A stretch of 51,075 nucleotides of DNA from the sequence record PZ871099.1; one strand, given 5' to 3'. Each line of letters begins with the position of its first letter. Positions within the stretch are counted from its first letter, which is position 1. Origin of the DNA: a phage. Below are positions 21,463-43,204 of this stretch, piece after piece. The translations under genes and the position numbers were made by a program. The notes under the pieces are model-generated. The model worked only from the letters and a program-made list of their open reading frames with translations, ran no database searches and was not told the origin of the DNA.

Positions 21463-21736
21463 TTTTGCACCTCAAATCAATGAATTTTCTTTCATCTTGC
21501 CAACGGTTGATAAATTTAACTTCTTTATTGTCAACGCTCAACCTGTATTGCTTTTGGCTGAATCTGTTTTCGCGTACCGCATTAATTTTAACTTCATGGA
21601 ATCCGTTAACAGGGAATGTTTTAACGTTAAATTTTGCCGTGCAATCGATCTCCTTGAAGTTGCCAGTAGGCGAAGAAGAACATCCGGTCAGGGCGGCTAC
21701 GGTGGCGATAACTGCGATTAATTTTTTCATCTTCAA
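21455..21736 (-). CDS. lipoprotein (candidate Cor/Llp-like superinfection exclusion protein)
   Basis: Signal peptide with lipobox LTGC (MKMKKLIAVIATVAALTGCSS); own upstream motif copy. Confidence 0.5.
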   Translation of the reverse strand: MKMKKLIAVIATVAALTGCSSSPTGNFKEIDCTAKFNVKTFPVNGFHEVKINAVRENRFSQKQYRLSVDNKEVKFINRWQDERKFIDLRCKNG

Positions 21737-21787
21737 TACTCCTTAGTTGTTGTTGGCTGTAACTATACACGATCCGGCAAGCCGAGT

Positions 21788-21806
21788 TTAGCAAAAAGTG
21801 CTACTT
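21788..21806 (-). promoter_or_regulatory. conserved intergenic motif copy, degenerate
   Basis: Minus strand reads AGTAGCACTTTTTGCTAAAC, then TATAGT, upstream of the lipoprotein gene. Confidence 0.5.
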
Positions 21807-21879
21807 GTTATTTTTTGTTTTACGGTGTTATCGGATTTAAGACGGCGTAAATTTAGCGCAAATTTTATCCAACATAAGA

Positions 21880-22170
21880 ACAATAAATAATCAATAAAAT
21901 AGGTATATACATATAAAATCAATAGTTTATTTATTTATGTATGTATATTTGTTTTTTCTTGTTATCTGTGTTTCTTGTGGTTTTGGTTGTTTGTGGTGAT
22001 TTTTCTTTCTGAGTATCTGTATGTGCCATCATTCATGTGTATGTATATAATCCGGCGTATATGAGAGAACAAGGGAACAAGAAAAATAACACATATTAAT
22101 CATTAACTTACGCGTCAAATTTGTTTTATTGCCATCTGAGAACGTTTAGAAAACAGAAAAAACAAAACAA
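21880..22170. repeat. GT/AT-rich non-coding module, copy A
   Basis: Shares TTATTTATTTAT, GTTTTTTCTTGTT, TGGTTTTGGTTGTTTGTGGTG, TGTATGTATATAAT, AAAAATAACA with copy B. Confidence 0.6.
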
Positions 22171-22173
22171 CTA

Positions 22174-22201
22174 TTGACTAAATCAACCAAATGGCTACAA
22201 T
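22174..22201 (+). promoter_or_regulatory. canonical sigma70 promoter (TTGACT-16-TACAAT)
   Basis: Read directly; about 30 nt upstream of the recombination module start. Confidence 0.6.
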
Positions 22202-22231
22202 GCACACACAAAGCAACGAGGAGCATTAAAG

Positions 22232-23287
22232 ATGAGTGATTTTAACGCCTATACTAGCGAAGAAATGAGCAATGAGCTTTATCATGATCCTAACGCGTGG
22301 ACGGCTGAATACGTCAGCGGTTCCAGCTTGGCGGAGATTTACAGCACTTGCCCGGCGTACTGGAAGTACAAGCCTCGCCAGGAAACCAAAGCACTTGTTT
22401 TCGGTACGCAGTCGCATACCAATTTTGAAAGCAAGGAGTTATTCGAAAAAACATATCGCCGCGCACCGTCGCAGGATGATTTTAAAGATCTGATCACAAG
22501 TCAAACGGCGTTGGCCTCAAAGCTGAAATCTTTTGGCCTGAAAGGTACGACGGGTAAGCAATACCCCGAATTGCTGGAAATGCTGTACAAGTGCGGTGAG
22601 GATCTCAATGTATGGTGGCTTATCGAAATGATGGCAGAATGCCAGGCCGCAGCGGACGGCGTGCAGCTAATCGACGCGAAAGATTATGATGCCTGTGTAG
22701 CGATGCGGCGCGTACTTGAGGCAATACCTGAGCATAATGCTTGCATGAATAGCCCAACCGCGCAGCGTGAAATGTCAATATTCGGGATCATCAATGGCGT
22801 AAAAGTTAAAGTGCGCCTTGATCACGTTGACGTAAACAAGGATGTAAAGGCCACAATCATTAACGGTTACGACGAAAAAGGCCGACCGATTTATGAAGAA
22901 GTCATCTATCCAGAAGCTGTGATTATCACTGACTATAAAACAACGGTTAGCGCAAATCCTGTTGACTTCCAGCGCCTGGCTTACAATCACGGCTATTATC
23001 TCAAAATGGCTTTGCAGCATGATTTATTTAAAAAGGCGTATCCAGACGAGGAAAGACCAGTAATTGTGAGATTGCTTGCTCAAGAGAAGAAAGAGCCTTA
23101 CTTGCCGCTCGCATTCCGCATGAACATTGAGCAATTGAAGATCGGGCGTATCCAGTACATGAGCGTGATCAACAAGTTCAACGTTTGCCAGCAGTTAGAT
23201 GAATGGCCTTCGTATGCAAACGGACAACCAGAAATTGATCTTGATACTCCTGATTGGGTCCGCGCTCAATTCAGGCAGTATCTATGA
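22232..23287 (+). CDS. PD-(D/E)XK family exonuclease (RecB/RecE-like)
   Basis: 351 aa; RecB-type motif III-like IITDYKTT; first gene of nuclease-annealase-SSB module. Confidence 0.55.
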   Translation: MSDFNAYTSEEMSNELYHDPNAWTAEYVSGSSLAEIYSTCPAYWKYKPRQETKALVFGTQSHTNFESKELFEKTYRRAPSQDDFKDLITSQTALASKLKSFGLKGTTGKQYPELLEMLYKCGEDLNVWWLIEMMAECQAAADGVQLIDAKDYDACVAMRRVLEAIPEHNACMNSPTAQREMSIFGIINGVKVKVRLDHVDVNKDVKATIINGYDEKGRPIYEEVIYPEAVIITDYKTTVSANPVDFQRLAYNHGYYLKMALQHDLFKKAYPDEERPVIVRLLAQEKKEPYLPLAFRMNIEQLKIGRIQYMSVINKFNVCQQLDEWPSYANGQPEIDLDTPDWVRAQFRQYL

Positions 23288-23348: not shown

Positions 23349-24017
<669 letters not shown>

Positions 24018-27269: not shown

Positions 27270-28199
27270 TTATAGCAGTGATTCGGGCTTGTAGAGTTTT
27301 CTTTCTACGCCCTGTTTAAAATTATCGTTAACAGGCATCATTATGTCAAGACCTCTTTCCTCTGCCGCGATTATCACATCACGATCATCTTTCCGGCAGA
27401 CTACGCGCATTCTTCTTTCTCCTTTATATCTATGCGCAACCATTTCAAGATTTGAAGGAGTAAAACAGGCCCACACCTCTTGACCAGTTGATAAATGAAC
27501 GTGTTGGGAGTCAACCCAATCAAGGCACAAATAGATCGTCTTATCCGTGCTACCTGTTTTAACAACAGATCCGCGCGTGTAGTCGCGAGCTAAAAACCAA
27601 TCCTTTCCATCCTCATCAATGAAAAGCACGTTACACATTTCATCATCCAGCCCGTCATCATGCACCAGGTGACAAGGTAGCGCGTGAATGTATCGACCAT
27701 CCTTGACGCCGCAATCATAATAACAATCTTCCGGCGGATATATCCCCTCATAAACGCTTAAGGGTGTGCGATCGAATTTTAATGTTTTTGCCATCACTTT
27801 TTCGCAGCATTCATGACTTGCCTGTTTCCCGAACGAGTAGCCAGAAGAACGTGAAGCGCGCTTGTTTGCTCTGATCCTGTAATCTTGTGGCACTTTGCCG
27901 AGGAAGCGGCCCAAAATGTTGATGGCCTCGCTGTAAGGTTCGCCAGTTAATTTCATTAACCAACCGATTCCAGTGTCGTTACCGCACACGTTGCAGATCG
28001 CGCCGCCGTCGCCCTCTTCATTTAGCTTATCAGTCCATCTAAAACGATCCTTACCGCCGCAGTGTGGGCAAGGCTGATGCTTTTTGTTGAAAACATCGCT
28101 ATGCAGTCCGCAAATGCTTTGTAGTGCTTCACGCCATAACCCCTTCATATATGGCAAAACATCTTCTTTCTGATAGGTCATAAAGTTTTCAGTATTCAT
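27270..28199 (-). CDS. DNA primase (zinc-binding, putative)
   Basis: Cys motif CPHCGG...CNVCGN, acidic DEDG/DD segments; start trimmed to MNTENF because the track start 28277 lies beyond a terminator hairpin. Confidence 0.5.
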   Translation of the reverse strand: MNTENFMTYQKEDVLPYMKGLWREALQSICGLHSDVFNKKHQPCPHCGGKDRFRWTDKLNEEGDGGAICNVCGNDTGIGWLMKLTGEPYSEAINILGRFLGKVPQDYRIRANKRASRSSGYSFGKQASHECCEKVMAKTLKFDRTPLSVYEGIYPPEDCYYDCGVKDGRYIHALPCHLVHDDGLDDEMCNVLFIDEDGKDWFLARDYTRGSVVKTGSTDKTIYLCLDWVDSQHVHLSTGQEVWACFTPSNLEMVAHRYKGERRMRVVCRKDDRDVIIAAEERGLDIMMPVNDNFKQGVERKLYKPESLL

Positions 28200-28212
28200 G
28201 GCAAACCTCAAT

Positions 28213-28247
28213 AAAAAAGCCCAGCAAATATTATCATTTCGCTGGGC
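28213..28247 (-). terminator. terminator-like hairpin after the HTH gene
   Basis: On minus: GCCCAGCgaaatgataatatttGCTGGGC plus T6; lies inside the track N-terminus of primase. Confidence 0.55.
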
Positions 28248-28254
28248 CTTATCA

Positions 28255-28731
28255 TTAGCTATTCGTGCTGTTATCACCTTTGTAGAATCTTCCGCCTGGT
28301 TCGTAGTCTGAATTTTTGACTACGCGCAACATTTCGTATTTGTCGCAACGGGTAGTAAGAGGCTTGCCGTTAGAATCAAACCGCAGATCTGGACGACAAA
28401 ACGAGGCGCGGTATCCTTTGCATCCATTATATTTGTAGTCGTTATGCACCTTTTGTGCTCCAGCGGCTGAAATCATACCACGCTTTCGCCATTGGTTAAC
28501 TACTTGCTGAGATACGCGTAGACGTCGAGCCATAGCAGGAACACCGCCGTAATACTCGATCAGAATGTCAAGGCGAGATTTCAGGCTTGCTTTTACCTCA
28601 TCTCGCAGGATAAGAAATCCGGTTCGGTGTTTTCGTGGCTTTTTGTCTTTACCTCGTCGCGTTCCGTTGTTACCGTTAATAATGCGCTTGTCGATCTCAC
28701 CCGTAGATACTGCAATTCGTGCATCTTTCAT
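28255..28731 (-). CDS. HTH DNA-binding protein (putative transcription regulator)
   Basis: HTH-like segment MARRLRVSQQVVNQWRKRGMIS; Cys-containing C-terminus. Confidence 0.45.
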   Translation of the reverse strand: MKDARIAVSTGEIDKRIINGNNGTRRGKDKKPRKHRTGFLILRDEVKASLKSRLDILIEYYGGVPAMARRLRVSQQVVNQWRKRGMISAAGAQKVHNDYKYNGCKGYRASFCRPDLRFDSNGKPLTTRCDKYEMLRVVKNSDYEPGGRFYKGDNSTNS

Positions 28732-28742
28732 CTAGTCACCTC

Positions 28743-28763
28743 ATAGCATTTTTTGTTAAAACA
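28743..28763 (+). promoter_or_regulatory. conserved intergenic motif copy between divergent genes
   Basis: ATAGCATTTTTTGTTAAAAC, then 22 nt, then TATTAT before the helicase; complement abuts the RBS of the minus HTH gene. Confidence 0.55.
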
Positions 28764-28818
28764 GTTTATTGTAATGAGTCTATTATATACTCCAAATGGC
28801 ATTTTTTAAAGGTTTAAG

Positions 28819-35678: not shown

Positions 35679-36074
35679 TCATGTGATATTGAATTTACGG
35701 CGCAGTGCTTCAAGATCTTGTCTATTAGCTTTTGCCTGGAACAATTCATCATCGCCCATCTCCCCTATTCTAGCCATATCCCTGATCCAGTCGTTGCGCA
35801 TACCATCCAGGCTATACAATTCGAATCCGAAAGGCCGCTTTGACGATCCTTTGGACCAGTATTTACCGCATACCCCATCTATATAGCCAGCCGTCATCAT
35901 TCTTGCGCAAAATTCCTTAGATGCAAGGCTGGCGAACATTCGCGGCGTAAGTCCGGCGGCACGTGCGAGCCGCTCGCATTCTCTATGCTGATAGATAAAT
36001 TTGGCTATGTGCTGCCTGTTAAACCAGTCGTATGACTCACACCATTTATACAGATCAAGCAAAAACATAATCAT
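35679..36074 (-). CDS. hypothetical protein (translationally coupled to upstream ATPase)
   Basis: 131 aa, ATGA overlap with the stop of 36071..37651. Confidence 0.4.
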   Translation of the reverse strand: MIMFLLDLYKWCESYDWFNRQHIAKFIYQHRECERLARAAGLTPRMFASLASKEFCARMMTAGYIDGVCGKYWSKGSSKRPFGFELYSLDGMRNDWIRDMARIGEMGDDELFQAKANRQDLEALRRKFNIT

Positions 36075-37651
36075 CCCAGCAGTATTGGATTTACAAAAAT
36101 AACACCATTAATCACACAAACATAATTTCTCTCTTCCAGCATTGGCAGCAAGTGCCCTTCTATCCTCTTCATTACGCCAGCTTGACCAACGAAAGGTTTT
36201 ACCTTTCTCGCTGATTCGTACAGGGCGCGGATATTCAGAATCCCTTTATTAGCCTTGCCGTGTCTAGTGATCAATTCAATCAATTTACCCATTTCAGCAT
36301 CATCACCAGCATAACCAGAAGCATTGGCGGCGCTAATGTATGTTTTGCTCAATTCCTGAAACATGATCAGCGCCTCTTGCATTGTTTCCACGTCGATCTC
36401 TTTCGACTTCTGCGGGTATCCAGCAGGATTAAACCAGTTGCGGATAACATGCAGGACGGAAGCAAGCCTGATCACCTGTTTATCCATTTTACCCAGCGCA
36501 CCGCGTAACATTGTATGAGAATACTTTCCGCCGTCTGCAAGATGCGGTTCCATATCCTGGCGAGCAATGTTGAGCACTCGCATAGCTGAACGGCTTATTT
36601 TCAGCGATACATTTGATTCGCTCATGATGTTATGCACCAATTGATAATATTGGGCCTTCAATTCAGAATCCACCGCCTCATAGGTAGAATCACCATTTTC
36701 ATCAATGAATGAGCGACGGCCTAAGAATGATTCCTCGCGGACCAACAAAAAGCGCTCACTAACACCGATACCGCGCGATCCAGCGTCCATGATTCCGCTT
36801 ATCGTTTCATCCTGGGCTATAACGCTCATACATCCAAGCGCGCGAAAACTCATGTTATTGTCAGCATTAGCACGGGCAATTGATACGTGACCATTATCCC
36901 ACGCCTTAAGCACTAGCTCACTGTTAGTCTTCCTTTCGCTATTTGCATAGGTCAAGCCTAACAAACTGTTAATACTTGTTGCTTCGTCAGATATTACGGC
37001 AAAGTTACCTTGCTTGTTGTTGATTTTCGCCAGGCCTTCTGGAGTTGTATCTGAAACAGGGAAAGTTATATCACACATCTTTTCCAGCTTCTCCTCCAGA
37101 TCCTCTTTTTCCTGGTATAGAGATTCCATATCAGCGCCTGATCTTTCGCTTTTCATCTCCTTTGCAAGACCTGCCAACTTTGCCTGTATTTTCTTTCTTT
37201 CCTTGCGGCGTTGCTCGTTGATCTTCTCAACTTCCGCAATCATCGGAGCAATAGCCATACTGTTGATCGCAGATTTACCAGTTGACGGCGGCTGGCTTGT
37301 AACGACGTAAAGCGCAGTCGGCTGATCGGTCCCGTGATAGTCAACCGTAAAGCGTCCAAGCATGGCGGCAGAAATGCAGCCGATAAAGTGCATGTAAGCC
37401 GATGATTCAGGGAATTGAACGGATCGCGCAATACTGCGTGATAACTTTCCGACAACATCAATATCATTACCAAGAGAAATTACGGGGTAGCGATCGTGAC
37501 CGCTATTTACATCTTTCACTTCGCCCCAAAAGCTGGACGACTGGCGATAGCCGTTAGCCTGAATTGATACGCGAACTGGCGAAAGGTTCTGGCTTTCAGC
37601 CATAGCGATTATTTGCTGTGGAGTTAATTTGTTCGTTTCTAATGAAAACAT
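36071..37651 (-). CDS. P-loop NTPase of unknown function
   Basis: 526 aa; Walker A QPPSTGKSA, Walker B-like FAVISDEA; family not assignable by eye. Confidence 0.5.
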   Translation of the reverse strand: MFSLETNKLTPQQIIAMAESQNLSPVRVSIQANGYRQSSSFWGEVKDVNSGHDRYPVISLGNDIDVVGKLSRSIARSVQFPESSAYMHFIGCISAAMLGRFTVDYHGTDQPTALYVVTSQPPSTGKSAINSMAIAPMIAEVEKINEQRRKERKKIQAKLAGLAKEMKSERSGADMESLYQEKEDLEEKLEKMCDITFPVSDTTPEGLAKINNKQGNFAVISDEATSINSLLGLTYANSERKTNSELVLKAWDNGHVSIARANADNNMSFRALGCMSVIAQDETISGIMDAGSRGIGVSERFLLVREESFLGRRSFIDENGDSTYEAVDSELKAQYYQLVHNIMSESNVSLKISRSAMRVLNIARQDMEPHLADGGKYSHTMLRGALGKMDKQVIRLASVLHVIRNWFNPAGYPQKSKEIDVETMQEALIMFQELSKTYISAANASGYAGDDAEMGKLIELITRHGKANKGILNIRALYESARKVKPFVGQAGVMKRIEGHLLPMLEERNYVCVINGVIFVNPILLG

Positions 37652-42047: not shown

Positions 42048-42105
42048 TGCTATCTCCTGAGCGGTTCGTTTCGATGTGTGTAATGTACCCGATCAGACGG
42101 CCTGA

Positions 42106-42127
42106 GTTTTAACAAAAAGTGCTATTT
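42106..42127 (-). promoter_or_regulatory. conserved intergenic motif copy
   Basis: 22 nt then TACATT, then leader ACACACATCGAAACGAA. Confidence 0.6.
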
Positions 42128-42149
42128 GACGGTTAGCGCCAGGATTGCG

Positions 42150-42250
42150 ATCGAAATAATCAAAAGTAATCATTCGTAATCAAATCACGTCAAAATGATG
42201 ATTGCCTTTGCAAATTTGATGAGAAAAGTAATCACGTTTAATCATTGGTT
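42150..42250. repeat. iteron-like array of TAATCA repeats
   Basis: AATAATCAAAAGTAATCATTCGTAATCAAATCACG ... AAAGTAATCACGTTTAATCATTGG; five copies spaced about 10 bp. Confidence 0.5.
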
Positions 42251-42399
42251 GCAGGGGAGATAGTGAAACCCTCCCCTCTTGCCTCACTTTTCCGCCTGGC
42301 TGTCAGTGGTTGTTGTCTTTTGTTCACCCCTGTTACCGATTTCAGGCGGCGTGTTTCCGCGCGGTTTTCCGGTGTAGCGAAAACGGAAAAAACAAAGAA

Positions 42400-42680
42400 A
42401 ATCCTCTATAATACATTGAAAATAAAGATTATTTATTTATATATATCTATAATGTTTTCTTTTTGTTCTCACTGTTACAGTGCTTTTTGTTGGTTATGGT
42501 GTGGTTGTGTGTGGGCATATATGGATAGTTGCGCGCGCGGCGGATTGCATATGTATATATACTTTTTCCGGCGGATTGCGTTAACAGCGTGAACAGAAAA
42601 ATAACAGCCCTGAAATCAACAACTTGCGCATGATTTTGTAGTTTTTCGATATTGGTAACGTTTTGAATACAACAAAAACA
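42400..42680. repeat. GT/AT-rich non-coding module, copy B
   Basis: Same blocks in the same order as copy A; spurious ORF 42245..42592 overlaps it. Confidence 0.6.
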
Positions 42681-42708
42681 TTGACACGCACCAAATAGCT
42701 TTTATAAT
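42681..42708 (+). promoter_or_regulatory. canonical sigma70 promoter (TTGACA-16-TATAAT)
   Basis: Read directly; start of the plus-strand early cluster; track ATG at 42707 lies in the -10 box so the gene start is placed at 42740. Confidence 0.65.
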
Positions 42709-42739
42709 GAGCCAACAGTCAACAACTGGAGGAAAGGAA

Positions 42740-43204
42740 ATGGAACAGAAAACCACTAAGGACTATTGCGATTGGCTTCGCGAGCTTGGTCGCCGCCTGG
42801 CTAGTGGCGATATTGAAGAGTATAAAATGTCACTAATTGACCTGGCCGGAATGTTAAGCGGTGACGACTGCTACAAGATCACGCGCAGTTCATCCTACAG
42901 CCGGACCATTATCAACCGCGTTCCAGAAGTAAGGGCCGCAGGTCGGGTAAGCATCAAGGTAGAGGAAACGGAAGATGATAAATTTTACGTTTTCCGCATG
43001 GTCCGCGAATCGAAAAGGAAAATCATCACACCCGAAGAATTGCCAGCCATCAAGGCAAGGGCGATCAAAAAGTTTGCCGATCGCTTACTGGCAGCAATCC
43101 CGAACATCGTGGACCTGGAAGGGGATAAACTGGCTGGAGCTTGTGAGGGCGTAAGCCGCTACCAGGATATGATCCGAGAAATCATCAAAGAGGAGGAGCA
43201 ATAA
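42740..43204 (+). CDS. hypothetical early protein
   Basis: RBS GGAGGAAAGG before ATG 42740. Confidence 0.35.
   Translation: MEQKTTKDYCDWLRELGRRLASGDIEEYKMSLIDLAGMLSGDDCYKITRSSSYSRTIINRVPEVRAAGRVSIKVEETEDDKFYVFRMVRESKRKIITPEELPAIKARAIKKFADRLLAAIPNIVDLEGDKLAGACEGVSRYQDMIREIIKEEEQ

What the first reader, a model, noticed from the sequence alone, without database searches (positions are those of the whole stretch)
21840..22231. Duplicated GT/AT-rich non-coding module upstream of both canonical sigma70 promoters (second copy at 42380-42739)
Two non-coding stretches of about 300 bp, 20 kb apart, share the same series of sequence blocks in the same order and orientation (TTATTTATTTAT, GTTTT(T)TC(TT)TTGTT, TGGTT..GGTGTGG/GTTTGTGGTG, (C)ATGTGTATGTATATAA, CCGGCG, GAACA(A)G, AAAAATAACA). 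Each ends in a near-consensus promoter (TTGACT-16-TACAAT at 22174; TTGACA-16-TATAAT at 42681) that also shares the spacer CCAAAT(A)GCT. Each opens a plus-strand gene cluster. Candidate roles are an upstream activating region, a small RNA, or a replication or packaging signal. The track ORF 42245..42592 over copy B is low-complexity and probably spurious.
Basis: seen in the sequence. Interest (0 to 1): 0.65.

Follow-up and report, generated by a model that had tools for sequence, protein, structure and literature searches.

The report
Duplicated origin-like module in T1-like phage
This T1-like coliphage has two related copies of a roughly 430-bp non-coding module, each made of phased short repeats around the most easily melted DNA in the genome and fused to a strong early promoter; this looks like the family's still-unmapped replication origin, or else a large operator region.

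Summary
Window 21804-22222 and 42309-42733 are true paralogues: local alignment scores 99 against 15.3+-2.1 for shuffles, and a profile of copy-A orthologues hits copy B end to end (E 3.7e-39). There is no third copy.

Each module has five arrays of about three TGTT(A/C/T) repeats at roughly 10-bp spacing. The arrays converge on a TA-rich centre. The two centres are the two least stable stretches of the genome, and the blocks that follow them are its two most G+T-rich stretches. An IHF-like site and a last array abut the -35 of a near-consensus sigma70 promoter.

The pair sits at the same two positions in Tempevirinae, T1 and Rtp. The repeat words differ by lineage, and paralogues within a genome resemble each other more than orthologues across subfamilies. 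That points to a phage-encoded binding protein.

My best reading (0.45) is replication origin(s) coupled to early transcription. It is analogous to P4 ori/crr but not a member of that family. The main rival (0.33) is a transcription-only operator or enhancer region. Small RNA, pac site and composition artefact are rejected.

No held paper describes the module, and two papers state the T1-family origin has not been found.

The parts
21804..22173 (+). Module copy A (repeat arrays, TA-rich centre, GT block, IHF-like site), upstream of promoter PA
   Evidence: Local alignment to copy B; nhmmer E 5.5e-86; conserved in more than 120 phage records.
42309..42680 (+). Module copy B, upstream of promoter PB
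   Evidence: The nhmmer profile of copy-A orthologues hits 42310-42681, E 3.7e-39.
21806..21832 (+). A array c1: three TGTT repeats at 10-bp spacing (TGTTATTTTTTGTTTTACGGTGTTATC)
   Evidence: Strict pattern search; site list; conserved columns.
21866..21890 (-). A array c2 (AACA orientation, degenerate)
21950..21976 (+). A array c3: TGTTTTTTCTTGTTATCTGTGTTTC
22064..22092 (-). A array c4: GAACAAGGGAACAAGAAAAATAACA, an inverted repeat of c1 and c3
22140..22173 (-). A array c5, A-rich, ending 1 nt before the -35 box
42311..42337 (+). B array c1: TGTTGTCTTTTGTTCACCCCTGTTAC
42376..42402 (-). B array c2
42453..42479 (+). B array c3: TGTTTTCTTTTTGTTCTCACTGTTAC
42580..42607 (-). B array c4: TAACAGCGTGAACAGAAAAATAACA, 80% complementary to c3
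   Evidence: (I1).
42655..42682 (-). B array c5, overlapping the first bases of the -35 box
   Evidence: (I2).
21882..21941 (.). A TA-rich centre: the least stable 60-mer of the genome, inside the imperfect palindrome 21873-21979
   Evidence: Nearest-neighbour dG -57.9, z 4.8, rank 1; palindrome.
42404..42463 (.). B TA-rich centre: the second least stable 60-mer, inside the palindrome 42386-42470. It holds a conserved TATAAT at 42407-42412.
   Evidence: dG -58.5, z 4.7, rank 2.
21944..22051 (+). A G+T-rich, C-poor block (G+T 0.77)
   Evidence: Highest G+T window of the genome.
42450..42567 (+). B G+T-rich block (G+T 0.73)
   Evidence: Second highest G+T window.
22052..22057 (+). CCGGCG block in A. 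A second CGGCG lies at 21843-21847 after c1.
   Evidence: Direct repeat D3; conserved in orthologues.
42568..42573 (+). CCGGCG block in B. A second CGGCG lies at 42347-42351 after c1.
22098..22110 (+). IHF-like site AATCATTAACTTA, one mismatch to WATCAANNNNTTR, between c4 and c5. A perfect match also lies at 21917-21929 in the centre.
   Evidence: Conserved ATCA..ACTTA block in orthologues.
42614..42626 (+). IHF consensus AATCAACAACTTG between c4 and c5
   Evidence: The consensus is not enriched genome-wide (6 matches against 3.8 expected).
22174..22201 (+). Promoter PA: TTGACT-16-TACAAT, spacer word CCAAATGGC. It drives exoVIII (start 22232), erf and ssb.
   Evidence: The TLS equivalent is listed as P51.
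42681..42708 (+). Promoter PB: TTGACA-16-TATAAT, spacer word CCAAATAGC. It drives DUF7174 (start 42740) and small early genes.
   Evidence: The TLS equivalent is listed as P01.
21786..21804 (-). Flanking known 21-nt T1-family repeat that heads the leftward genes. It is adjacent to the duplicated module, not part of it.
   Evidence: TLS paper.
42107..42125 (-). Flanking known 21-nt repeat that heads the leftward early cluster
36071..37651 (-). Candidate trans factor: DUF3987 protein with a predicted MCM-like AAA+ helicase fold and a C-terminal winged helix
   Evidence: Pfam. AF2 pLDDT 88, and all top-50 PDB hits are MCM subunits. C-terminal winged helix pLDDT above 90. Binding to the arrays is not shown.
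27270..28277 (-). Primase homologous to the primase domain of P4 alpha
   Evidence: tblastn E 2.5e-14 to alpha residues 20-263; Zn_Ribbon_Prim.
28255..28731 (-). Candidate trans factor: Cro/YdaS-like HTH protein encoded upstream of the primase
   Evidence: Binding is not shown.

Best explanation
The two stretches are paralogous copies of a cis-acting module on which a nucleoprotein complex assembles.

**Layout of each copy.** Five arrays, each of about three TGTT(A/C/T) sites spaced one helical turn apart, are laid out as c1 (forward), c2 (reverse), TA-rich centre, c3 (forward), G+T-rich block, c4 (reverse), IHF-like site, c5 (reverse), then the promoter.

**Proposed mechanism (inferred, not shown).** A phage-encoded DNA-binding protein occupies the phased sites on one face of the helix in convergent arrays. 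IHF may add a bend. The TA-rich centre between the arrays then melts. The replication proteins enter there: the MCM-like helicase (36071-37651) and the P4-alpha-type primase (27270-28277).

Transcription may help opening or priming. It could come from the adjacent strong early promoter, or from the conserved TATAAT at the edge of the centre. A rightward transcript would leave the G-rich block on the non-template strand, which favours R-loops.

In short, the modules are most likely the replication origin(s) of this T1-like phage, present twice and coupled to the two main early promoters. Array c5 touches the -35 box, so the same protein probably also modulates those promoters.
For: **Shown**
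- The paralogy is real, and there are exactly two copies.
- The strict pattern TGTT-N5-7-TGTT-N5-7-TGTT has 6 hits against 0.13 expected, and 5 of the 6 lie in the modules.
- All ten arrays share one 27-nt layout when oriented the same way.
- The cores of the arrays are the conserved columns across orthologues, while the spacers vary.
- The two centres are the two least stable segments of the genome at 40-, 60- and 100-nt scales (z 4-5).
- In T1, 18 of the 20 genomic ATATATA words lie in its two modules.
- The G+T blocks rank first and second in the genome.
- The same two-copy architecture occurs at the same two positions in Hanrivervirus, Tlsvirus, T1 (A-B score 60) and Rtp (A-B score 88).
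- The repeat words are lineage-specific although all hosts are E. coli. In T1, 6 of 6 genomic TGTWACA words lie in the modules. In Rtp, 6 of 6 TCCGCGG words do.
- Paralogues within a genome score higher than orthologues across subfamilies: 99, 60 and 88 against 16-48.
- The arrays are absent from the other two sigma70-like promoters, at 23962 and 28810.
- In TLS, copy A is not divergent, yet keeps all of its arrays.

**Context**
- The phage encodes a P4-alpha-type primase and an MCM-like helicase with a C-terminal winged helix.
- The P4 record annotates two cis replication regions, ori and crr. Both hold TGTTCAC(C) repeats in both orientations at 10-11-bp spacing.
- Two papers state that no origin has been found in T1-like phages.
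Against: - No experimental datum places initiation here.
- The trans-acting protein is not identified. The winged helix of the MCM-like helicase is about as similar between Rtp and the window (61%) as the rest of the protein, although their repeat words differ completely. The HTH protein varies between TLS and the window, which share TGTTC-type repeats. The covariation test is therefore inconclusive.
- The repeat core is short (TGTT plus weak flanks).
- The exact P4 heptamer TGTTCAC is not enriched: 7 hits against 5.8 expected.
- The winged-helix fold matches are generic, with E of 0.03 or worse.
- The IHF consensus is not enriched genome-wide, and there are no DnaA boxes.
- The fixed position directly upstream of promoters, with c5 at -36 to -62, is what a transcription-control region would also look like.
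- Two origins in a 51-kb virulent phage is unusual. P4 ori/crr is a precedent checked here. SPP1 oriL/oriR is one from my own knowledge.
Confidence: 0.45

Rival explanations
1. Transcription-only control region. The arrays are operators or enhancer sites for a phage-encoded regulator, such as the Cro/YdaS-like HTH protein or the fast-evolving DUF7174 product. This regulator would wrap about 370 bp of DNA and switch the two main early sigma70 promoters, and perhaps the divergent leftward units, on or off during the early-to-middle transition. The phi29 p4/p6 switch region is a comparable case, from my own knowledge.
For: - c5 abuts or overlaps the -35 box in every lineage.
- Both modules lie in regions that are divergent promoter regions in most lineages.
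- TLS has only three predicted sigma70 promoters, and two of them are these.
- The phage encodes an HTH regulator.
- DUF7174 is always the first gene after module B and is only 25-42% identical between lineages, like the repeats.
- All four sigma70-like promoters share the spacer word CCAAATRGC, which suggests coordinated control.
Against: - A transcription switch does not need the genome's two least stable stretches or its two most strand-skewed stretches, 130-250 bp upstream of the promoter.
- The arrays are absent from the other two sigma70-like promoters.
- Fifteen sites over 370 bp is far more than known phage operators carry.
- The HTH protein is at least 50% conserved across the whole family. 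That fits the family-wide 21-nt repeat better than the lineage-specific arrays.
Confidence: 0.33
2. Host-factor or DNA-shape upstream activating region. Phased T/A tracts give static curvature, and together with UP-element-like A-tracts and IHF (or an OmpR/ArcA-type host regulator that reads TGTTA direct repeats) they boost host RNA polymerase at the early promoters. No phage protein is involved.
For: - The T-rich repeats have 10-bp phasing.
- An A-rich stretch lies at -40 to -60.
- The IHF-like site is conserved in position.
- From my own knowledge, ArcA boxes are TGTTA direct repeats about 11 bp apart.
Against: - T1, Rtp, TLS and the window phage all infect E. coli K-12, yet carry different repeat words at the same positions (TGTWACA, TCCGCGG/TTACGC, TGTTC). 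A host-factor site should be shared.
- Within-genome homogenisation of A and B points to a co-evolving partner.
- The G of TGTT is invariant in 28 of 28 sites, which curvature alone does not require.
Confidence: 0.1
3. A small or structured RNA, or a leader, is encoded in the GT-rich part.
For: - A promoter-like site GTGCCA-17-TATAAT lies at 22023-22051 in A.
- The folding z-score for A is -2.3.
Against: - There are no credible Rfam hits.
- The folding z-score for B is -1.2.
- The alignment fold is -7.6 kcal/mol, and its only pairs are between invariant repeat cores.
- The internal promoter is not conserved in B or in orthologues.
- No terminator follows it.
Confidence: 0.03
4. Packaging (pac) signal recognised by the small terminase.
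For: The T1, TLS and haarsle GenBank records start inside the intergenic region that holds copy B. The TLS authors map pac by restriction analysis and propose an AGATTT motif.
Against: - Those record starts fall in the B-specific segment (window 42126-42308, with TAATCA repeats), which has no counterpart in copy A.
- A headful phage with one defined pac fragment should not carry a second pac 20 kb away.
Confidence: 0.03
5. The similarity comes only from AT/GT composition bias.
For: Both regions are AT- and GT-rich.
Against: Dinucleotide-preserving shuffles reach at most 23.5 against the observed 99. The profile hit is collinear and end to end.
Confidence: 0.01

Closest known systems
Satellite phage P4 ori plus crr (type 1 repeats bound by the alpha primase-helicase)
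   Same: - Two separate cis regions in one genome share the same short repeat.
- The repeat core is TGTTC/GAACA, in both orientations, in runs of three at 10-11-bp spacing.
- The P4 ori also lies in a divergent promoter region.
- The phage primase is homologous to the alpha primase domain.
   Different: - The exact P4 word TGTTCAC(C) is not enriched here.
- No sequence homologue of the alpha helicase or origin-binding domain was found.
- Here the helicase is a separate MCM-like protein.
- The modules are 20 kb apart and each is fused to a consensus promoter.
- A TA-rich centre and a G+T block are present.
Bacillus phage SPP1 oriL and oriR (from my own knowledge, not checked here)
   Same: It is a virulent siphovirus of similar size with two distant origin regions. 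They share initiator-binding boxes next to AT-rich DNA.
   Different: The initiator is different (G38P) and the sequences are unrelated. SPP1 oriL lies inside a gene. No link to consensus early promoters is known to me.
Lambda ori and plasmid iteron origins (established knowledge)
   Same: Phased repeats for an initiator lie next to an AT-rich unwinding element, with host bending proteins. Initiation depends on nearby transcription.
   Different: Lambda ori has four 18-19-bp iterons inside gene O, in a single copy. Here the sites are very short, arranged as convergent triplets, and non-coding. No O-like or Rep-like initiator is recognisable.
T7 primary origin and T4 oriF/oriG (promoter plus downstream unwinding element, R-loop priming; established knowledge)
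   Same: A promoter-like -10 element sits at the edge of an easily melted stretch. The strand-skewed G-rich DNA that follows would be non-template for a rightward transcript. Strong promoters are adjacent.
   Different: No phage RNA polymerase or MotA-type factor is known here. The flanking repeat arrays have no counterpart in T7 or T4 origins. The transcript is hypothetical.
SV40 and papillomavirus core origins (inverted pentanucleotide sites for a helicase-initiator, flanked by an AT tract, inside a divergent promoter region; established knowledge)
   Same: Short sites in convergent orientation flank a melting region. The layout would suit head-to-head loading of a ring helicase that carries its own DNA-binding domain.
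   Different: The proteins and host domain are unrelated. This is an analogy of logic only.
The 21-nt direct repeat of T1-like phages (aaATAGCACnnnTTGnTAAAA; TLS paper PMC11447400)
   Same: One copy flanks each module on the minus strand (21786-21804 and 42107-42125). This accounts for the leftmost shared block.
   Different: It is a separate, family-wide element with 23 copies per genome, each pointing at a gene start. It lies outside the duplicated module.

Membership tests
Iteron-type replication origin | Several copies of a short site, phased about one helical turn apart | tested here: met
   Ten arrays of about three TGTT sites. The strict pattern has 6 hits against 0.13 expected, 5 of them in the modules.
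Iteron-type replication origin | Adjacent AT-rich DNA-unwinding element | tested here: met
   The centres are ranks 1 and 2 for lowest duplex stability in the genome, z 4-5.
Iteron-type replication origin | A cognate initiator protein binds the repeats | not testable with these tools
   Candidates are the MCM-like helicase winged helix, the HTH protein and DUF7174. The covariation test is inconclusive.
Iteron-type replication origin | Replication initiates at the locus, or the locus supports replication in cis | not testable with these tools
   This needs marker-frequency analysis or an ori-plasmid assay. Two papers say the origin is unknown.
Iteron-type replication origin | Host factor sites (DnaA boxes, IHF) | tested here: inconclusive
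   No DnaA-box enrichment and no exact box in the modules. The IHF-like site is conserved in position, but the consensus is not enriched.
P4 ori/crr system | Type 1 repeat TGTTCAC(C) in multiple copies | tested here: not met
   Only 2 exact heptamers, both in B, and no enrichment (7 against 5.8). Only the TGTT(C/A) core and the spacing are shared.
P4 ori/crr system | Two separate cis regions carry the same repeats | tested here: met
   Copies A and B; P4 annotation.
P4 ori/crr system | Alpha-type primase | tested here: met
   tblastn E 2.5e-14 over alpha residues 20-263.
P4 ori/crr system | Alpha helicase and C-terminal origin-binding domain | tested here: not met
   There is no tblastn match beyond the primase domain. 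A phmmer search of PDB sequences with the DUF3987 protein found nothing at E below 0.5. That protein folds like MCM, and its winged helix gives only generic matches.
Known RNA family or small RNA | Match to a covariance model, or a conserved structure with covariation | tested here: not met
T1-family 21-nt direct repeat | Match to ATAGCACnnnTTGnTAAAA pointing toward a gene start | tested here: met
   Met only for the flanks, 21786-21804(-) and 42107-42125(-). It is not found inside the duplicated module.
Sigma70 promoter with UP element or upstream activating region | Near-consensus -35 and -10 boxes with an A/T-rich -40 to -60 region | tested here: met
   Promoters score 10/12 and 12/12, and A-rich c5 lies directly upstream. 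This covers only about 60 of the 430 bp.
pac site of a headful phage | A single site per genome, at the mapped first cut | tested here: not met
   There are two module copies. The starts of the T1 and TLS records lie in the B-specific segment outside the module.

The most novel reading that the evidence does not exclude
The modules are the long-sought replication origins of the T1 family. An MCM-like ring helicase would be loaded between convergent triplets of very short sites onto a TA-rich bubble, helped by IHF and by transcription through a G-rich, R-loop-prone block. The two origins, 20 kb apart, would be kept alike within each genome by gene conversion or by co-evolution with a rapidly changing initiator. 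That is a bacterial-virus origin with the logic of SV40 or archaeal MCM origins.
Probability: 0.35. Interest if true: 0.75.

Novelty: new variant of a known kind. Interest (0 to 1): 0.6.

Why it matters
T1 is one of the seven classical T phages, and its relatives (Drexlerviridae) are among the commonest coliphages and fermentation contaminants. Even so, the two papers held here that looked for an origin report finding none.

These two modules give a concrete, directly testable candidate. They also supply defined sites for identifying the initiator.

If they are instead pure transcription switches, they would define the control regions of the family's early promoters, which are equally uncharacterised.

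Either way, the pattern is a clean natural example of cis-trans co-evolution: two copies in syntenic positions, lineage-specific repeat words, and paralogues more alike than distant orthologues. It also warns annotators that the ORFs called across these regions in many GenBank records are spurious.

Tried and rejected
- **Rfam** on both regions at E up to 1 gave only two chance snoRNA hits.
- **RNA folding** of each module and of 12 orthologues showed no convincing structure.
- **DnaA boxes** are not enriched.
- **The exact P4 iteron word** is not enriched.
- **P4 alpha against the window** matched only the primase domain.
- **PDB sequence search with the DUF3987 protein** found nothing.
- **The Foldseek search with the C-terminal winged helix** gave only generic winged-helix matches, with no P4 origin-binding domain among the 50 listed.
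- **Covariation of repeat type** with the helicase winged helix, the HTH recognition helix or the primase across five genera gave no clean signal.
- **GC skew** follows gene orientation and says nothing about origins.
- **A second promoter at 22023-22051** is not conserved in B or in orthologues.
- **A Rho-utilisation site** on the C/A-rich minus strand was considered. No leftward transcript is known to cross it, and TLS copy A has no leftward genes, so it was left untested.
- **DUF7174 as an anchor for finding copy B** in other contigs returned only 2 loci because the gene is too divergent. The leftward neighbour gene worked instead.
- **Literature.** The Rtp genome paper is not held.

Full report
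**What the window is.** The 51,075-bp window is essentially a whole genome of a T1-like coliphage (Drexlerviridae, Tempevirinae, Warwickvirus). It is about 99% identical to phages Poky and tonijn across both regions of interest. Gene order matches phage FritzSarasin.

**Checking the observation.**
- Local alignment of the two intergenic regions scores 99, against 15.3 +/- 2.1 (maximum 23.5) for dinucleotide shuffles. It runs from 21804-22222 to 42309-42733 at about 65% identity.
- A profile built only from twelve orthologues of copy A hits copy B end to end (E 3.7e-39). It finds no third copy.
- ORF 42245-42592 has no family and a low-complexity product. A 97%-identical relative carries a 1-nt indel inside it.

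**Context.**
- In this phage both copies lie in divergent intergenic regions.
- Copy A sits between the leftward genes that occupy the position of T1's cor (exclusion) gene, which start at 21736, and exoVIII-erf-ssb, which start at 22232.
- Copy B sits between a leftward cluster of small genes (start 42047) and a rightward cluster that begins with a DUF7174 gene (true start 42740).
- A further shared block to the left of each copy (21786-21804 and 42107-42125, minus strand) is the known 21-nt direct repeat of T1-like phages. It has 23 copies here against 2.6 expected. It is a separate element.
- Copy B has an extra 180-bp segment (42126-42308) between that repeat and the module. Copy A has no counterpart.

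**Anatomy.**
- Each module contains five arrays of about three TGTT(A/C/T) sites spaced 9-11 bp apart.
- Oriented alike, all ten arrays share one 27-nt layout, for example TGTTTTCTTTTTGTTCTCACTGTTAC.
- The strict pattern TGTT-N5-7-TGTT-N5-7-TGTT occurs 6 times against 0.13 expected, and 5 of these hits are in the modules.
- The order is c1 (forward), a CGGCG word, c2 (reverse), a TA-rich imperfect palindrome, c3 (forward), a G+T-rich C-poor block, CCGGCG, c4 (reverse), an IHF-like site, c5 (reverse), and then the -35 box.
- The TA-rich centres (21882-21941 and 42404-42463) are the two least stable stretches of the genome at 40, 60 and 100 nt (z 4-5).
- The G+T blocks are the two most G+T-rich 108-nt windows (0.80 and 0.74, against 0.50 +/- 0.06).

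**Comparative evidence.**
- Copy A aligns across Warwickvirus, Hanrivervirus, Tlsvirus and other T1-like contigs (43 IMG/VR loci). The conserved columns are the TGTT/AACA cores, the ATCA..ACTTA block and the promoter.
- Copy B has the same architecture in the relatives recovered through its leftward neighbour gene.
- T1 (Tunavirinae) and Rtp (Braunvirinae) also carry a paralogous pair at the same two genomic positions. Their A-B scores are 60 and 88.
- Their repeated words differ. In T1 all 6 genomic TGTWACA words lie in the modules, together with GATTAAC and ATTACG. In Rtp all 6 TCCGCGG words do, together with TTACGC. TA-repeat words are concentrated there in every lineage (T1: 18 of 20 ATATATA).
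- Paralogues within a genome score higher (99, 60, 88) than orthologues across subfamilies (16-48, close to the shuffle background).
- All of these phages infect E. coli. Lineage-specific words at conserved positions, together with within-genome homogenisation, argue for a phage-encoded partner rather than a host factor. This step is an inference.

**The replication lead.**
- The GenBank record of satellite phage P4 annotates two cis replication regions, ori and crr. Both hold 'type 1 repeats' TGTTCAC(C/A) in both orientations. One run is GGTGAACAG three times at 10-11-bp spacing, and the ori lies in a divergent promoter region.
- The window's primase is homologous to the primase domain of P4 alpha (E 2.5e-14). 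Nothing matches alpha's helicase or origin-binding domain.
- The exact P4 heptamer is not enriched here.
- This is therefore a resemblance of logic and of a 4-5-nt core. It is not membership of the P4 family.
- The DUF3987 protein (36071-37651) is predicted with pLDDT 88. All 50 best PDB matches are MCM subunits.
- Its C-terminal 70 residues form a confident winged helix, with only generic matches.
- A Cro/YdaS-like HTH protein is encoded just upstream of the primase.
- I could not tell which protein, if any, reads the arrays, because the five-genus covariation check was inconclusive.

**Literature.**
- The 2024 TLS paper lists only three sigma70 promoters in TLS. Two correspond to PA and PB, and the third drives the HTH-primase operon.
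- The SU57 paper also reports that no origin was found.
- No held paper describes the duplicated module.

**Rivals.**
- A transcription-only operator or enhancer region is the serious rival. Array c5 touches the -35 box, the regions hold the main early promoters, and all four sigma70-like promoters share the spacer word CCAAATRGC.
- Against that rival, the arrays are missing from the other two promoters. A switch also does not explain the extreme melting and strand-skew features 130-250 bp upstream.
- The host-factor or curvature, small RNA, pac and composition explanations are weighed in the rival list. The last three are effectively excluded.

**Verdict.**
- The feature is real, conserved across the family, and not described in the literature I could reach.
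- Its most likely role is a replication origin present in two copies and coupled to early transcription (0.45).
- A pure transcription-control role is next (0.33).
- The binding protein and the act of initiation are inferred, not shown.

Noticed in passing
window 2093-48967: 23 sites, e.g. 21786-21804(-), 42107-42125(-), 28743-28761(+): The known T1-family 21-nt repeat ATAGCACnnnTTGnTAAAA occurs 23 times against 2.6 expected, each copy pointing at a gene. At the two module flanks it is followed about 21 nt downstream by a conserved -10-like GATCGnGTAnAnTTAC (21759-21774 and 42080-42094, minus strand). That spacing is too long for a normal sigma70 promoter.
   Followed up: partly
window 22187-22195, 23970-23978, 28792-28800, 42691-42699: CCAAATRGC occurs four times (1.2 expected), and every copy lies in the spacer of a sigma70-like promoter. 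These are PA, PB, an internal promoter ahead of ssb (TTGACA-18-TAAAAT at 23962-23991), and the minus-strand promoter of the HTH-primase operon (28810-28782). It may be a shared operator.
   Followed up: partly
window 42126-42308: This B-specific segment has no counterpart in copy A. It carries TAATCA repeats (42154-42177 and 42226-42249). The T1 and TLS GenBank records start inside the equivalent segment, and TLS has AGATTT about 35 bp in, so it may hold the pac site.
   Followed up: partly
window 36071-37651 (-): The DUF3987 'helicase' is predicted (pLDDT 88) to fold like an MCM AAA+ helicase subunit with a C-terminal winged helix. All top-50 PDB matches are MCM2-7 or archaeal MCM.
   Followed up: yes
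window 28255-28731 (-): The Cro/YdaS-like HTH protein has a nearly invariant basic N-terminal arm (DKRxxNGNNGTRRGKDKKPRK). It is at least about 46% identical to the window protein across all 39 family members aligned. It is a plausible partner of the equally conserved 21-nt repeat.
   Followed up: partly
window 42740-43204 (+); also L049 469-936, L095 589-1035, L050 539-1111, L096 546-1061: A DUF7174 gene is the first gene after module B in all five genera examined, yet it is only 25-42% identical between them. This is far more divergent than the replication proteins.
   Followed up: partly
window 42407-42412; equivalent sites in T1, TLS and Rtp modules: A TATAAT hexamer sits at the left edge of the TA-rich centre in copy B, and matching hexamers lie at or near that position in most other lineages' modules. 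It has no recognisable -35 box and follows array c2. It may be a factor-dependent promoter firing into the unwinding region.
   Followed up: no
GenBank MG065636-MG065687 ('Campylobacter phage' records, hits H107-H119): These records of about 47-50 kb are labelled as Campylobacter phages. They carry module A at about 73% identity over its full length, like Hanrivervirus coliphages, so they are probably mislabelled T1-like coliphages.
   Followed up: no
relatives' annotation over both modules (e.g. OR896819, OR912983, ON716453): Several GenBank records 'hypothetical protein' genes across the non-coding modules. These calls are almost certainly spurious.
   Followed up: partly
window copy B 42406-42501 versus L012 (phage W011D) copy A: The c3 and centre part of the window's copy B is 85% identical to copy A of phage W011D, but only 75% identical to the window's own copy A. 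This suggests past exchange between the two loci across genomes.
   Followed up: no
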